A DNA stretch of 64,000 nucleotides from Deltaproteobacteria bacterium (GTDB lineage: Bacteria; Desulfobacterota; Binatia; Binatales; Binataceae), in contig JAKBMB010000029.1 of the NCBI GenBank assembly GCA_021831785.1, forward strand, positions 87,065 through 151,064, in the 5' to 3' direction. Shown piece after piece: positions 10,495-13,260 of this stretch. The first letter of the stretch is position 1, and the number at the start of each line of letters is the position of its first letter. Under the pieces are notes generated by a model, which saw only the letters and a list, made by a program, of their open reading frames with translations, had not been told where the DNA came from and did no database searches. The translations under genes were made by a program, and so were the position numbers.

Positions 10495-13260
10495 ATGAAA
10501 CGAGCGCCGGCGATAGCCCTGGTCGTCGCCATGCTGCTGCTCTTTGGCTCACGAGCGGACGAGTTGTGGGCCCAGGCCACCTATATGCCCGACCAGACTA
10601 TACGGGCAACCCGCAGGCAGAGCAGCCCCTCCCCCGCCATGCAAGAGATGTTAACGATGAACTTCCAGGATGTTGATATCGGCGTGCTGGCCAAGTTCAT
10701 CAGCGAAATCACGGGCAAAAATATCGTTCTTGACGAAAGCGTCCGCGGCAAGGTCAGCATCATCTCCCCCACCAAGGTCACGCCGGCGCAGGCCTACAAC
10801 ATTTTTCAATCCGTGCTCCTGCTCAAAGGTTTCACTACCGTGCAAGCGGGACCGGTGGTCAAAATCGTGCCCCTGCGTTCAGCGCGCGAGTCGGCGGCGA
10901 TGACTCACGCGCCCCAGCCCGGCCAGACCCAGGGCGACGCCTACGTGACCCGGCTGGTCAAGCTGCGCCATGTGGAGGTCGCGGCGCTGGTCGGCGTGGT
11001 TCAACCCCTGATTTCTCGGGAAGGGTTGGTGGCCGCCTTTCCGCAGACCAACACTTTGATTCTGACCGACAACGCTTTCAATATTGACCGGCTCCTCAAC
11101 GTGATTCAAAGCCTGGATATTCAAGGCCAGCAGCAAGCTCTCGAAGTTATCCCGCTCAAACTTGCCTACGCCACCGACCTCGCGCCCGAGATCGAAAAGA
11201 TCATGACTGAAAAGGACTCCCGAGGCGCGACGGCGCCGATGGCGCGAGCGATTCCGGGAATGGCCGGCGCGTCGGCGGTGGGACCGTCTCAAGCCTTCAA
11301 GATCATTCCGGATGAGCGGACCAACTCGCTGATCGTGACGGCCGGGCCGCTGCAGATGGCGGAAATCAGGAGCATCGTGCGCAAGCTCGACATCCATGCG
11401 CCGCTGGCGACTTCGCGAATTCACGTCTATCACCTCAAGTACGCAAGCGCCCTTCAGCTTCTCGACGTGCTCAACGGCCTGCTCGGCGGCAACAGCCCGG
11501 GCCAGCCCTCACCTCAGACCGGACGCGGCGCGCTCGGCCGTATGGGCGGGATGGGGAGCATGGGCGGTATGGGTGGCATGGGCGGCGGTGGCATGAGCGG
11601 TATGGGCGGCATGGGTGGTACGGGCGGCGGTATGGGCTCCTCGGGCTTTGGCGGCTCTTTTGGCGGCGGCGGCGGAATGGGCATGACCGGGATGAGCATG
11701 GGCTTCGGCGGCGGCGGGGGGATGGGCGGCAGCAACAACGGCGGTGCCGCCAGTGCCTCAACGCCCAACGACAGCAAGCATAAGGGCCCCGCCGAGTTCG
11801 AAAGCCAGGTGCGCGTGACCGCGGACCCTACCACCAATGCCCTGGTGATTACGGCCGGCCCGCAGGACTATGAGACGCTCAGTCACGTGATCCAAGAGCT
11901 TGACGTGCCGCGCCGTCAGGTTTTTGTACAAGCAGCGATCGCCGAGGTGAGCGTCAATTTGCAAACTAACCTGGGCGTCAGCATGCAAAACATGGGCGGC
12001 GCCGCGGGCGGCTTCAGTGTGGGTCAACTCAACTTCGGCCAAATGGCGCAGTCGCTGGCCAACCCGGCCGCTGCCAACGGCATGACGATGGGACTGATAT
12101 CGGGCGCGAACTGTTCCGTGGCGGCTAATGCTCTAGGCGGACTGGCCAGCATGGCCATGACAGGTCTGGGCGGCGCCGCGATGGGCGGACTAGGTGCCCT
12201 GGGCGGCATGGGCGGCTATGGCGGCATGGGCGGTTACGGCGGTTATGGCGGCATGGGTGGTTATGGCGGTTACGGCGGCTATGGCGGCTCTCCTTACGGC
12301 TACGGCGGCTACGGCGGTTATGGCGGCTACGGCGGCTCTCCTTACGGCGGCTACGGTGGCTTTGGCCCCATGTACGGCAACGGCACCAACGGGACGATAC
12401 CGATGCCGTGCGACGTCGCCCTAATCACCGCGCTGGAGCAGGATACCCAGTCAAACGTGCTCTCGGCGCCTACGCTGCTGACTGCCGACAACGAAGAGGC
12501 GACAATCGTGGTCGGCCAAAACCTGCCGTTTCTTTCCTCGGCGTCGATGAACGCGGGCATGCCCGGGGCGATGTTTAGCGGCGTGAACCGCCAAAACGTC
12601 GGCATCATGCTCGATATCGTGCCGCAGATAAGCGACGGCGGCTTCGTCAAGCTCGACATCTACGAGGAAGTCTCCAACGTAGTCAACGGAACTTCGAACA
12701 ATACGCTGGGACCGACGACGACGATTCGCTCGGCCTCGACCAGCGTCGTGGTCGAAAACCATCACACCACCGTGATCGGCGGCTTGCTCTCTAATGAGCT
12801 TGACAAGACCAACACCGGGGTTCCGGTAGTCTCCAACCTTCCAATACTGGGCAATTTCTTCTCGCAGAAATCTACAACCAAGACCAAGACCAATCTGCTG
12901 GTATTTCTAACGCCTCATATCATCCTCACTAGCCAAGACTTGAAGGCGCTCTCGCTTGATGAGCGGCGGAAGTTTATCGCCGCGATGACCAAACAAGAGG
13001 CGAAAGACATGCCGAAGACTCAGGCACGCGTCTTATCACAGCCTGGCTTTTCGCGAGCAGTGACGCCCGCCCAAGAATTGCAAGGAACAGTGCATAGCCT
13101 GCCGGGCTTCCCTACGAGCAAGCCGGTCACGGCACCTGGCCCTGCTCAGCTAATGACGCCGCCGCGGTCGGGGTCGAACAGTTCTGGAACGTGGGGAGGG
13201 CTTCCCTCTGCCAACCCCGCTCAGTGGCAAACGACTTCGCCGTCGGGGTCAAACCGTTAG
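10495..13260 (+). CDS. GspD-type secretin (N0-N1-N2-N3-secretin) with two large Gly-rich low-complexity insertions
   Basis: Signal peptide (MKRAPAIALVVAMLLLFGSRADELWAQA). A classic GspD N0 domain (NFQDVDIGVLAKFISEITGKNIVLDESVRGKVSIISPTKV...VVKIVP). The secretin C-domain signature GVPVVSNLPILGNFFSQKSTTKTKTNLLVFLTPHII. GGM-rich and GYGG-rich inserts at roughly aa 331-420 and 556-630. Good RBS (ggagga) before the ATG. Confidence 0.85.
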   Translation: MKRAPAIALVVAMLLLFGSRADELWAQATYMPDQTIRATRRQSSPSPAMQEMLTMNFQDVDIGVLAKFISEITGKNIVLDESVRGKVSIISPTKVTPAQAYNIFQSVLLLKGFTTVQAGPVVKIVPLRSARESAAMTHAPQPGQTQGDAYVTRLVKLRHVEVAALVGVVQPLISREGLVAAFPQTNTLILTDNAFNIDRLLNVIQSLDIQGQQQALEVIPLKLAYATDLAPEIEKIMTEKDSRGATAPMARAIPGMAGASAVGPSQAFKIIPDERTNSLIVTAGPLQMAEIRSIVRKLDIHAPLATSRIHVYHLKYASALQLLDVLNGLLGGNSPGQPSPQTGRGALGRMGGMGSMGGMGGMGGGGMSGMGGMGGTGGGMGSSGFGGSFGGGGGMGMTGMSMGFGGGGGMGGSNNGGAASASTPNDSKHKGPAEFESQVRVTADPTTNALVITAGPQDYETLSHVIQELDVPRRQVFVQAAIAEVSVNLQTNLGVSMQNMGGAAGGFSVGQLNFGQMAQSLANPAAANGMTMGLISGANCSVAANALGGLASMAMTGLGGAAMGGLGALGGMGGYGGMGGYGGYGGMGGYGGYGGYGGSPYGYGGYGGYGGYGGSPYGGYGGFGPMYGNGTNGTIPMPCDVALITALEQDTQSNVLSAPTLLTADNEEATIVVGQNLPFLSSASMNAGMPGAMFSGVNRQNVGIMLDIVPQISDGGFVKLDIYEEVSNVVNGTSNNTLGPTTTIRSASTSVVVENHHTTVIGGLLSNELDKTNTGVPVVSNLPILGNFFSQKSTTKTKTNLLVFLTPHIILTSQDLKALSLDERRKFIAAMTKQEAKDMPKTQARVLSQPGFSRAVTPAQELQGTVHSLPGFPTSKPVTAPGPAQLMTPPRSGSNSSGTWGGLPSANPAQWQTTSPSGSNR
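11485..11754 (+). repeat. In-frame tandem GGC/ATG/GGT codon repeats encoding the (G/M)-rich insert of the secretin
   Basis: Iterated ggcggtatgggtggcatgggcggc... units seen directly. Translated as GGMGSMGGMGGMGGGGMSGMGGMGG... Confidence 0.8.
12160..12384 (+). repeat. In-frame tandem repeats encoding the GYGG/GSPYG-rich insert of the secretin
   Basis: Iterated ggctatggcggc / ggttacggcggt units. Translated as GGYGGMGGYGGYGGMGGYGGYGGYGGSPYGYGGYGGYGGYGGSPYGGYGGFG. Confidence 0.8.

What the first reader, a model, noticed from the sequence alone, without database searches (positions are those of the whole stretch)
10495..13260. GspD-type secretin, with no partner genes in the window, carrying GroEL-tail-like (GGM)n and FG-nup/FUS-like (GYGG)n low-complexity insertions
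**What the sequence shows.** The ORF has every element of a T2SS GspD secretin: a signal peptide, an N0 domain near-identical to the GspD consensus, N1-N3, and the secretin C-domain motif VPxLxxxPxLGxxF...LLVFLTP.
- **Gene context.** No gspC/E/F/G, pil or tad genes occur anywhere in the 64 kb. The neighbours are lolDE (divergent) and an LpxL-like acyltransferase (downstream).
- **First insertion.** About 90 aa of Gly/Met repeats (GGMGSMGGMGGMGGGGMSGMGGMGG...) interrupt N3. The motif is the same as the flexible GroEL C-terminal (GGM)4M tail.
- **Second insertion.** About 75 aa of GYGG/GSPYG repeats lie early in the secretin domain. From my recollection of the Vibrio GspD alignment, this corresponds to the extracellular lip/cap-gate segment.
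- **C-terminus.** The protein ends in a Pro/Ser/Thr-rich tail of about 100 aa rather than a pilotin-binding S-domain.

**Inference.** The channel may carry an intrinsically disordered, cohesive Gly-Tyr / Gly-Met plug or selectivity phase, analogous to nuclear-pore FG repeats. If so, it is probably not a conventional T2SS and may be specialised for another outer-membrane export or uptake function.
Basis: partly seen in the sequence, partly recalled or inferred. Interest (0 to 1): 0.85.

Follow-up and report, generated by a model that had tools for sequence, protein, structure and literature searches.

The report
Unlinked T2SS secretin with disordered loops
This is the outer-membrane pore (GspD secretin) of an ordinary type II secretion system in an uncultured Binataceae bacterium; its gene sits apart from the rest of the machinery, and two of its known variable loops have grown into long, floppy glycine-rich stretches whose role is unknown.

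Summary
The ORF (10495..13260, +, 921 aa) is real and is a GspD secretin. It scores 527 bits on TIGR02517 (cutoff 351) and has N0, three Secretin_N domains and a Secretin domain. The window holds no gsp/pil/tad genes.

The "orphan, non-T2SS" inference fails. Binataceae relatives carry a gspE-F-G-H-I-J-K-L-M-N operon that lacks gspD. On one 803-kb contig, that operon lies about 44 kb from the lolDE-adjacent secretin. Sister Binatia lineages keep gspC-gspD inside the operon.

- **Insert 1 (Gly/Met, about 106 aa)** expands the N3 loop that is unresolved in PulD. A Gly-rich, nearly uncharged loop of 71–132 aa occurs in all 121 family members and in the operonic GspDs. The hydrophobic residue varies (F, M, L or Y), so GGM is only one flavour.
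- **Insert 2 (Gly/Tyr)** lies in the apical "top-gate" region, between two invariant cysteines. It is expanded only in the query and three close relatives (apical region 115–144 aa, against 60–85 aa in the rest). Between 98%-identical strains it changes by in-frame repeat indels.
- **The C-terminus** has a conserved helical segment before the P/S/T tail.

Verdict: a new variant of a known kind. A gel-like plug is possible but untested.

The parts
10495..13260 (+). gspD: T2SS secretin, 921 aa, with a Sec-type signal peptide (residues 1 to about 26)
   Evidence: ORF. TIGR02517 scores 527 bits against a cutoff of 351. Pfam N0, Secretin_N x3 and Secretin. The best PDB sequence hit is XcpQ 5WLN at 2.6e-77. 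The best Foldseek hit is PulD 6HCG at 4e-28.
10657..10866 (+). N0 domain (aa 55-124), the GspC-docking domain in characterised T2SSs
   Evidence: PF21305 at 5.4e-24. pLDDT is 82-92. Many columns are invariant across 71 homologues.
11485..11802 (+). Insert 1: Gly/Met/Ser low-complexity loop (aa 331-436) between helix 1 and strand 2 of N3. It is an expansion of the loop that is unresolved in PulD (288-303).
   Evidence: Alignment break at XcpQ 286/288. PulD loop unresolved. Present in 121/121 family members at 71-132 aa. pLDDT about 33. Tandem 9/18-bp repeats at 11542-11628.
11986..12417 (+). Apical ('top/cap gate') region, aa 498-641 (144 aa), between the [QN]W-equivalent motif (SM 496-497) and the ALIT motif
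   Evidence: Region definition from PMC10550240. Measured. It is 34-101 aa in 6,167 proteobacterial secretins and 60-85 aa in 117 of 121 family members.
12112..12411 (+). Cys540...Cys639 loop containing insert 2 (GYGG/SPYG repeats, 98 aa between the cysteines). These are the only two Cys in the protein, and both are invariant in the family.
   Evidence: Cys pair in 121/121 sequences. The loop is 14-39 aa in 117 sequences and 69-98 aa in the query clade. Strands 539-543 and 634-638 flank it in the model. Tandem repeats at 12181-12361.
12430..12924 (+). Secretin C-domain core (aa 646-810): inner-barrel and gate region
   Evidence: PF00263 at 3.7e-43. Aligned to XcpQ 400-580.
12925..13089 (+). 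Conserved helical post-barrel segment (aa about 811-865), at the S-domain position
   Evidence: Helices 813-830, 833-838, 841-848 and 858-865. Invariant L816, L819, R824, P840, P850, P858. The PulD alignment extends to aa 841.
13090..13257 (+). Variable P/S/T/G-rich disordered C-terminal tail (aa 866-921)
   Evidence: pLDDT about 30. Family post-barrel length is 75-291 aa and A/P/S/G-rich.
13334..13389 (+). Terminator-like hairpins downstream of gspD
   Evidence: consensus scan only.
8305..10336 (-). lolD (8305-9075) and lolC/E (9053-10336), divergently transcribed from gspD. This is conserved synteny, not shown to be functionally linked.
   Evidence: Pfam ABC_tran, and FtsX plus MacB_PCD. The same arrangement occurs in L001, L002, L003/L004 and L091.

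Best explanation
The gene encodes the GspD secretin of a conventional type II secretion system in a Candidatus Binataceae bacterium (phylum Binatota).

**Gene arrangement.**
- In this family gspD has left the gsp operon.
- It now sits at a fixed chromosomal position, divergent from lolE-lolD-bamA-skp-...-lpxB.
- The rest of the machinery (gspE-F-G-H-I-J-K-L-M-N, preceded by a small lipoprotein gene) is encoded elsewhere.

**Protein.**
- It has the standard N0-N1-N2-N3-secretin architecture.
- Two loops already known to be variable or disordered in solved secretins are greatly expanded into intrinsically disordered low-complexity sequence.

**Loop 1, the N3 loop (about 106 aa).**
- This loop lies at the 'N3 constriction'.
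- The equivalent disordered N3 loop of the phage secretin pIV points into the pore centre.
- Here it is Gly/Ser-rich and almost uncharged, with a hydrophobic residue (Met here; Phe, Leu or Tyr in relatives) every 3-5 residues.
- The feature is ancestral to Binatia T2SS secretins.
- I infer it acts as a flexible lumenal brush or gasket that adds to sealing of the closed channel and is displaced by substrate or pseudopilus.

**Loop 2, the apical loop.**
- It is closed by a probable Cys540-Cys639 disulfide at the position of the Vibrio-type top gate.
- Only in the query's small subclade has it expanded by replication slippage into about 98 aa of GYGG/SPYG repeats.
- The expansion may form a soft extracellular cap, or it may simply be tolerated.

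**Shown versus inferred.**
- Shown: family identity, insert positions, conservation patterns, slippage-type indels, and a gspD-less operon in relatives.
- Inferred: the window's own genome has that operon, the N3 loops face the lumen, the disulfide forms, and the loops have any gating role.
For: **Identity.**
- family models; PDB sequence search; Foldseek.

**Partner genes.**
- Outgroup secretins P0121 and P0125 (46-48% identical) lie in gspC-D-E-F-G-H-I-J-K-L-M(-N) operons.
- The same is true of L007-L009, from 'Candidatus Binatia bacterium'.
- Binataceae MAG loci L012-L014 have gspE..N but no gspD of either type.
- GspE P0402 and secretin P0048 are on the same 803,136-bp contig, at about 566.9 kb and 519.9 kb.
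- GspD divergence between the lineages (47-49% identity) is like that of GspF (48%). This fits orthology rather than a paralogue with a new function.

**Synteny.**
- The arrangement next to lolDE-bamA is the same in 5 loci.

**N3 loop.**
- It is present in 121/121 sequences, median 107 aa.
- The core is G 47%, S+T 23% and hydrophobic 18%. Charged residues are 1.3%, against 18.3% in the rest of the protein.
- The dominant sticker is F in 63 sequences, M in 51, L in 5 and Y in 2.
- Operonic GspDs have the loop too (81-114 aa, G 39-55%).
- Long Gly-rich versions recur outside Binatia.
- The PulD loop is unresolved and the N3 domains form constriction sites (PMC6882859).
- The disordered N3 loop of pIV points into the pore centre (PMC8563730).

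**Apical loop.**
- Its position is set by the region definition in PMC10550240 and by the alignment to V. cholerae GspD.
- The Cys pair is invariant and the loop lengths are as given above.
- Four in-frame indels (42, 63, 15, 9 bp), confined to the repeat tracts, separate the query from the 98.4%-identical L091.
- A top gate improves watertightness without setting specificity (PMC10550240).
Against: - The T2SS operon was not seen in the window's own genome. The co-occurrence evidence comes from a relative that is about 62% identical in the structured regions.
- No GspC (T2SSC) gene was found in any Binataceae locus I hold, so how N0 is coupled to the inner-membrane platform is unresolved.
- The complete-looking 4.58-Mb contig carrying P0117 did not appear among the top 120 GspE hits, so universality within the family is not shown.
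- The orientation of the expanded N3 loop is inferred from other secretins.
- Fifteen loops total about 140 kDa, which exceeds the volume of a 74 Å x 35 Å N3 lumen. So they cannot all sit there. They must spill into adjoining chambers or out of the ring.
- AF2 confidence in the barrel is low (mean pLDDT 55.7).
Confidence: 0.8

Rival explanations
1. The inserts are functionally neutral. They are slippage-driven low-complexity expansions tolerated at two permissive, already-disordered loops of an otherwise ordinary T2SS secretin.
For: - Both tracts are 9/18/27-bp tandem repeats.
- Strains 98.4% identical differ by four in-frame repeat indels.
- The GY expansion exists in only 4 of 121 family members.
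- N3 loop length ranges from 13 to 112 aa, and the apical region from 47 to 100 aa, across other GspDs.
- Apical composition is highly variable in Proteobacteria (PMC10550240).
Against: - The N3 loop is retained in every one of 121 sequences and in the sister operonic GspDs, within a narrow length range.
- It shows a strongly constrained composition (about 1% charged against 18% elsewhere, and regular hydrophobic spacing), despite no sequence conservation.
- That pattern is typical of selected disordered regions.
- This argument does not apply to the GY insert, for which neutrality remains quite plausible.
Confidence: 0.35
2. The gene is an orphan secretin that no longer serves a T2SS and works with the adjacent Lol/BAM/lipid A outer-membrane biogenesis genes in some other export or uptake role. 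The disordered inserts would form an FG-nucleoporin-like selective phase.
For: - The divergent arrangement with lolE-lolD-bamA-skp-lpx is conserved in five loci spanning about 60-98% identity.
- No gspC was found in Binataceae loci.
- The N3 loop is uncharged and has sticker-spacer character.
Against: - A T2SS operon that lacks exactly gspD occurs in Binataceae, and on the same contig as the secretin in one case.
- The protein passes the GspD equivalog model and keeps a highly conserved N0 domain.
- The same Gly-rich N3 loop is present in secretins encoded inside canonical T2SS operons.
- Synteny alone across one family of MAGs is weak evidence of function.
Confidence: 0.07
3. The Gly-Tyr apical loop is a surface-exposed contingency or variation locus. 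Repeat-number changes would alter an exposed epitope, adhesin or receptor (for example to evade phage or predators, or to stick to surfaces) rather than gate the channel.
For: - The position is extracellular by homology with top gates that protrude above the outer membrane (PMC10550240; PMC10329019).
- The loop changes rapidly by in-frame repeat number between near-identical strains.
- Loop length differs among the four clade members (69-98 aa between the cysteines).
- In other family members the loop is T/S/A-rich and variable.
Against: - No direct evidence of exposure, binding or selection exists.
- Only four sequences are available.
- The metagenome scan recovered only one further locus, and it was identical to P0002.
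Confidence: 0.2

Closest known systems
Klebsiella-type T2SS secretins (P. aeruginosa XcpQ/XcpD 5WLN, K. pneumoniae PulD 6HCG, E. coli K-12 GspD 5WQ7)
   Same: - Same N0-N1-N2-N3-secretin architecture.
- Best sequence and structure matches.
- The N3 loop at the same site is short, Gly-rich in XcpQ ('NNGGQGGEQTGGGR') and unresolved in PulD (288-303).
   Different: - The N3 loop is about 5-7 times longer (106 aa).
- The apical region is 144 aa, against about 55-60 aa.
- A Cys pair brackets the apical loop.
- The C-terminal tail is long and disordered.
- gspD is not in the gsp operon.
Vibrio-type (top/cap-gated) T2SS secretins (V. cholerae GspD 5WQ8, ETEC/EPEC GspD 5ZDH/5W68)
   Same: - Extra sequence at the same apical site between the two helices preceding PF00263.
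- The apical region is at least 80 aa, the published predictor of a top gate.
   Different: - Known top gates are about 20 extra residues forming a beta-hairpin.
- Here the addition is a roughly 98-aa Gly/Tyr low-complexity loop, predicted disordered (pLDDT about 30) and probably disulfide-closed.
- Its length exceeds the 34-101 aa range reported for 6,167 proteobacterial secretins.
Operonic GspD of sister Binatia lineages (L005, L007, L008, L009)
   Same: - 47-49% identical in structured regions.
- Same long Gly-rich uncharged N3 loop (81-114 aa).
- Long C-terminal extension.
   Different: - These are encoded inside gspC-D-E...N operons.
- Their apical region is 54-59 aa with no Cys pair.
- They carry a conserved extra C-terminal segment that is absent from the query family.
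FG-nucleoporin cohesive domains, and the GroEL C-terminal (GGM)n tails (analogies only)
   Same: Low-charge Gly/Ser-rich disordered chains with regularly spaced hydrophobic or aromatic residues, tethered in multiple copies around a channel or chamber.
   Different: - There is no homology.
- The GGM motif is not conserved among orthologues (GGF, GGS and GGL are at least as common).
- Cohesion, phase behaviour and selectivity are untested.

Membership tests
T2SS secretin GspD (TIGR02517 / PF21305 + PF03958 + PF00263) | Scores above the curated cutoff of the GspD equivalog model | tested here: met
   527.1 bits against a cutoff of 351.35. PilQ, SctC, HofQ and MshL models all score below their cutoffs.
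T2SS secretin GspD (TIGR02517 / PF21305 + PF03958 + PF00263) | Domain architecture: signal peptide, N0, N1-N3 ring-building domains, C-terminal secretin domain | tested here: met
   - Pfam hits.
- The AF2 secondary structure shows the expected domains, with pLDDT 75-92 in N0-N3.
- Foldseek top hits are GspD/PulD structures.
T2SS secretin GspD (TIGR02517 / PF21305 + PF03958 + PF00263) | Genome encodes the cognate inner-membrane platform, ATPase and pseudopilins (gspC, E, F, G-K, L, M) | tested here: inconclusive
   - These genes are absent from the 64-kb window.
- In relatives, a gspE-N operon lacking gspD occurs in Binataceae MAGs and on the same contig as the secretin orthologue P0048.
- gspC was not found.
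- The window's own genome could not be examined.
T2SS secretin GspD (TIGR02517 / PF21305 + PF03958 + PF00263) | C-terminal S-domain that binds a pilotin lipoprotein (present in many GspDs, not all) | tested here: inconclusive
   - A conserved helical segment at 811-865 lies at the S-domain position.
- A small lipoprotein gene precedes gspE in Binataceae operons.
- No binding evidence exists.
T2SS secretin GspD (TIGR02517 / PF21305 + PF03958 + PF00263) | Forms a 15-mer gated outer-membrane channel that secretes folded proteins | not testable with these tools
   Only a monomer model was possible, and there are no experiments.
Vibrio-type (top-gated) T2SS secretins | [quoted passage not shown] | tested here: met
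   144 aa (498-641), measured. The criterion is from PMC10550240.
Vibrio-type (top-gated) T2SS secretins | The extra residues fold as a pair of antiparallel beta-strands converging over the pore | tested here: inconclusive
   - Only short strands (539-543 and 634-638) flank the loop.
- The 86 residues from 548 to 633 have pLDDT below 50 and no secondary structure.
- The model is a monomer and of low confidence.
FG-nucleoporin-like cohesive/selective disordered phase (functional analogy) | Low-charge disordered repeats with regularly spaced hydrophobic or aromatic 'stickers', conserved in composition rather than sequence | tested here: met
   - N3 loop core: charged residues 1.3% median against 18.3% in the rest of the protein.
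- Hydrophobic residues are 18%, spaced about 3-5 residues apart.
- The sticker identity varies: F in 63 sequences, M in 51, L in 5 and Y in 2.
- The Cys-Cys loop has 0 charged residues and 14 Tyr.
FG-nucleoporin-like cohesive/selective disordered phase (functional analogy) | Chains fill the channel lumen and form a cohesive barrier with selective passage | not testable with these tools
   - Lumen orientation is inferred from pIV, InvG and PulD.
- A mass/volume estimate was made.
- There are no biophysical data.
GroEL-type C-terminal (GGM)n tail | Conserved GGM repeat motif | tested here: not met
   The GGM flavour is seen in a minority. Most orthologues have G/S/F loops and some have G/L. The resemblance is compositional only.

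The most novel reading that the evidence does not exclude
Binatia-type T2SS secretins, and scattered GspDs in other environmental lineages, may use a previously undescribed gating element. Fifteen N3 loops of about 100 aa each are nearly uncharged and made of Gly/Ser with regularly spaced Phe, Met, Leu or Tyr. That is about 140 kDa per channel. These loops could form a cohesive, FG-nucleoporin-like meshwork inside the periplasmic vestibule. The meshwork would seal the pore and be parted by the pseudopilus and substrate. In the query's subclade a second, disulfide-closed Gly/Tyr meshwork (about 133 kDa) would cap the extracellular mouth in place of a beta-hairpin top gate.
Probability: 0.15. 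Interest if true: 0.7.

Novelty: new variant of a known kind. Interest (0 to 1): 0.38.

Why it matters
**What is settled.** The apparent "orphan secretin" is explained. It is the gspD of a T2SS whose operon has lost gspD to another chromosomal site. This is a useful caution for annotating secretion systems in MAGs.

**What remains of interest is structural.**
- The two sites where solved secretins have unresolved or optional elements (the N3 constriction loop and the apical top-gate region) can be expanded to about 100 aa of disordered, uncharged sticker-and-spacer sequence.
- For the N3 loop, this composition is conserved across a whole class and recurs elsewhere.
- The apical region here (144 aa) exceeds the 34-101 aa range reported for Proteobacteria.
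- If these loops contribute to sealing or gating, that would add a "soft" disordered mechanism to the rigid-gate picture of how giant outer-membrane pores stay watertight.
- If they do not, they are a clear example of slippage-driven low-complexity growth at permissive loops.

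Tried and rejected
1. **Binatota literature.**
   - Four papers hold both 'Binatota' and 'secretion system'. I read none of them.
   - The Binatota genome paper does not mention secretion, pili or the outer membrane.
2. **Literature on Gly-rich secretin loops.** None of the 12 top-ranked papers listed uses 'glycine-rich'.
3. **First GspE search.** It used the outgroup GspE and returned only the operonic-gspD lineage. A genome scan was needed to reach Binataceae GspE, followed by a second search.
4. **Contig-length matching.** This linked only one secretin/GspE pair (803,136 bp). 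The 4.58-Mb and 1.57-Mb secretin contigs were not among the top 120 GspE hits.
5. **GspC search.** tblastn with five Binatia GspC proteins against the window and all Binataceae loci found nothing.
6. **Pfam on the small lipoprotein upstream of gspE.** Only sub-threshold BamE/DUF3862 hits.
7. **Metagenome scan for more Gly-Tyr clade members.** It returned one locus, identical to P0002.
8. **AF2 monomer.** It gave a poor barrel (mean pLDDT 55.7), so loop geometry relative to the gates could not be measured. A 15-mer model was not possible.
9. **Rejected: homology to GroEL tails or FG-nucleoporins.** The resemblance is compositional only.
10. **Rejected: PilQ, SctC, HofQ, MshL or Amuc_1098 membership.** All score below their cutoffs.

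Full report

Yes.
- The ORF listing gives a single 921-aa ORF at 10495..13260 on the + strand. Its third-position GC (0.75) is like that of the neighbouring genes.
- Pfam finds a GspD-type N0 domain (aa 55-124, E = 5e-24). It also finds three Secretin_N stretches, one of which spans aa 310-475 and so is an N3 domain split by an insert. The Secretin domain covers aa 646-810 (E = 4e-43).
- The NCBIfam GspD equivalog TIGR02517 scores 527 bits against a cutoff of 351. PilQ, SctC, HofQ and MshL models all fall below their cutoffs.
- The best solved relatives are T2SS secretins. By sequence these are XcpQ 5WLN (2.6e-77), E. coli GspD and PulD. By Foldseek on an AF2 model the top hit is PulD 6HCG (4e-28).

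- Insert 1 is about aa 331-436 (G 44%, M 13%, S 11%).
- Insert 2 lies between Cys540 and Cys639. It has 98 residues: 45 Gly, 14 Tyr and no charged residue.
- Both are encoded by 9/18/27-bp tandem repeats.
- Both are modelled as disordered, with pLDDT about 30-36.

**2. Gene context in the window**

Pfam scans of essentially all ORFs of 100 aa or more, plus a six-frame scan for prepilin and GspE Walker-A motifs, find no gsp, pil or tad genes.
- Upstream and divergent from the secretin are lolC/E, lolD, bamA, skp and, further on, lpxB.
- Downstream is a lipid A acyltransferase, followed by housekeeping genes.
- Terminator-like hairpins follow the stop codon.

So "no partner genes in the window" is confirmed.

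**3. Who owns it, and is it really an orphan?**

The homologue search returns hundreds of proteins of 830-1050 aa labelled GspD from Candidatus Binataceae or Binatus.

In relatives that are only 51-59% identical overall, the same divergent arrangement recurs: secretin against lolE-lolD-bamA-skp-fabZ-lpxA-lpxI...lpxB. These relatives lie on contigs of 4.58 Mb, 1.57 Mb and 803 kb. No T2SS genes occur within ±10 kb. A 98%-identical strain shows the same arrangement.

At 50% clustering the whole family collapses to one representative (848 bits), and the next secretin scores only 535 bits. That next-nearest secretin, P0121, is 46% identical and lies in a textbook gspC-D-E-F-G-H-I-J-K-L-M operon. 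P0125 likewise follows a gspC gene. Three further "Candidatus Binatia bacterium"-type loci have the same full operon with its own gspD.

I then used the GspE of that lineage to scan species-representative genomes. This recovered three "Candidatus Binataceae bacterium" loci.
- tblastn shows gspE-F-G-H-I-J-K-L-M-N there.
- It shows no gspD of either type, even with 9-10 kb of upstream sequence in L013 and L014 and about 3 kb in L012.

A search with the Binataceae GspE found P0402 on a contig of 803,136 bp. The look-up confirmed that this is the same JGI contig, Ga0556611_000003, that carries the secretin orthologue P0048. The operon lies at about 566.9-576.4 kb and the secretin at about 519.9-522.5 kb.

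So in Binataceae the T2SS operon lacks exactly the gene that sits next to lolDE.
- GspD divergence between the two lineages (47-49% in structured regions) matches that of GspF (48%). This fits a relocated orthologue.
- It is inferred, not shown, for the window's own genome.
- One loose end is that no GspC gene was found in any Binataceae locus I hold.

**4. Insert 1: the N3 loop**

The alignment to XcpQ breaks at residues 286/288. XcpQ itself has a short Gly-rich loop there ("NNGGQGGEQTGGGR").
[quoted passage not shown] Across 121 aligned family members the loop is always present, with median length 107 aa (range 71-132). Its core has a constrained composition but no conserved sequence:

| Property of the N3 loop core | Value |
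|---|---|
| Gly | 47% |
| Ser + Thr | 23% |
| Hydrophobic residues | 18%, spaced every 3-5 residues |
| Charged residues | 1.3% (18.3% in the rest of the protein) |
| Dominant hydrophobic residue | F in 63 sequences, M in 51, L in 5, Y in 2 |

- The GroEL-like GGM motif is therefore just one flavour.
- The operonic GspDs of the sister lineages have the same kind of loop (81-114 aa, G 39-55%).
- Long Gly-rich N3 loops recur in unrelated environmental GspDs, while other GspDs have loops of 13-60 aa with A/P/S/K-rich composition.

So insert 1 is an ancestral, compositionally conserved disordered expansion of a known variable loop in bona fide T2SS secretins. It is not a mark of an unconventional system.

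Fifteen copies amount to about 140 kDa. That is more than a 74 Å x 35 Å N3 lumen can hold. If the loops face inward, they must be a major occupant of the vestibule. This makes a sealing or gasket role plausible, and it makes their orientation the key unknown.

**5. Insert 2: the apical loop**

[quoted passage not shown] The region is 34-101 aa long in 6,167 proteobacterial T2SS secretins. A length of 80 aa or more predicts the optional top (cap) gate, which improves watertightness without imposing specificity.

| Sequences | Apical region length |
|---|---|
| Query (aa 498-641) | 144 aa |
| Three closest relatives | 115-134 aa |
| Other 117 family members | 60-85 aa |
| Operonic Binatia GspDs | 54-59 aa |
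| 107 representative GspDs from other lineages and family fragments | 47-100 aa |

- The family has two invariant cysteines (121/121), which are the only Cys in the query. They bracket a loop of 14-39 T/S/A-rich residues in most members, and of 69-98 GY/SPYG-rich residues in the query clade.
- In the model, short strands at 539-543 and 634-638 flank the loop.
- A typical family member aligns this loop to the cap-gate-bearing segment of V. cholerae GspD, just before the helix that opens PF00263.
- Against the 98.4%-identical locus L091, the gene differs by four indels of 42, 63, 15 and 9 bp. All are in-frame and all lie inside the repeat tracts.

Insert 2 is therefore a recent, slippage-prone, lineage-specific expansion at the top-gate site. 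It could act as a soft cap, it could be a variable surface feature, or it could be neutral. The data do not discriminate between these.

**6. The C-terminus**

Residues about 811-865 are conserved (invariant L816, L819, R824, P840, P850, P858). They are helical in the model, and the PulD alignment runs to residue 841. So an S-domain-like segment exists, and only about 56 aa form the P/S/T tail. Long low-complexity tails are common in the family (75-291 aa after the barrel) and in other GspDs.

**7. Mechanism and verdict**

- The disordered N3 loops are probably functional in some way, given their conserved composition and length. My preferred reading is a lumenal entropic or cohesive gasket.
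- The GY loop may be a disordered analogue of the top gate, or it may be merely tolerated.
- The FG-nucleoporin-like "selective phase" remains an analogy. Its compositional criteria are met, but its defining behaviour is untested.

This is a new variant of a known kind.

Noticed in passing
L090:9429-9860; L012:~2400-2794; L013:8589-9062; L014:9385-9822: A conserved small lipoprotein gene (143-157 aa, lipobox '...GCGLFYQAG...') sits immediately upstream of gspE in all four Binataceae gspD-less T2SS operons. Its only Pfam hits are sub-threshold (BamE/DUF3862). It is absent from the operonic-gspD Binatia loci. It could be a pilotin or a GspC substitute, and no GspC was found in Binataceae loci.
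   Followed up: partly
Proteins P0124, P0129-P0131, P0134, P0139, P0142 and others: The best representatives include giant secretin-like proteins of 2,500-5,500 aa. They have 18-37 separately matched stretches and a C-terminal stretch that aligns to the query's secretin domain.
   Followed up: no
L005:5215-8175, L007:6919-9993, L008:7103-9994, L009:7186-9993 (C-terminal ~100 aa of each product): The operonic GspDs of the sister Binatia lineages share a conserved C-terminal segment that looks globular ('...RYVLLAAF...GLLA(V/L)ELP.DS.L...Y.F.SD.Y...YPEG..V...YLHWR...'). It lies beyond the low-complexity linker and is absent from the lolDE-adjacent family.
   Followed up: no
window 14520-15050: About 530 bp lie between the lipid A acyltransferase gene and the GBBH-like gene that are missing from the 98.4%-identical locus L091. 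The segment contains an imperfect internal inverted repeat (14743-14863, 72%), has no other copy in the window, and is of unknown nature.
   Followed up: partly
window 50189-55726 versus L009:1-6117: In L009 the T2SS operon (gspC onward) lies directly beside the sirohaem/hemA/hemC/hemD cluster. The window has the same haem cluster (NAD_binding_7, GlutR, TP_methylase-HEM4) but no T2SS genes next to it.
   Followed up: partly
window 58852-60000 (-) and 38340-38825 (-): These are long ORFs with atypically low third-position GC (0.43 and 0.59, against about 0.75 for neighbouring genes) and no Pfam hit. They are probably spurious ORFs or unusual genes.
   Followed up: no
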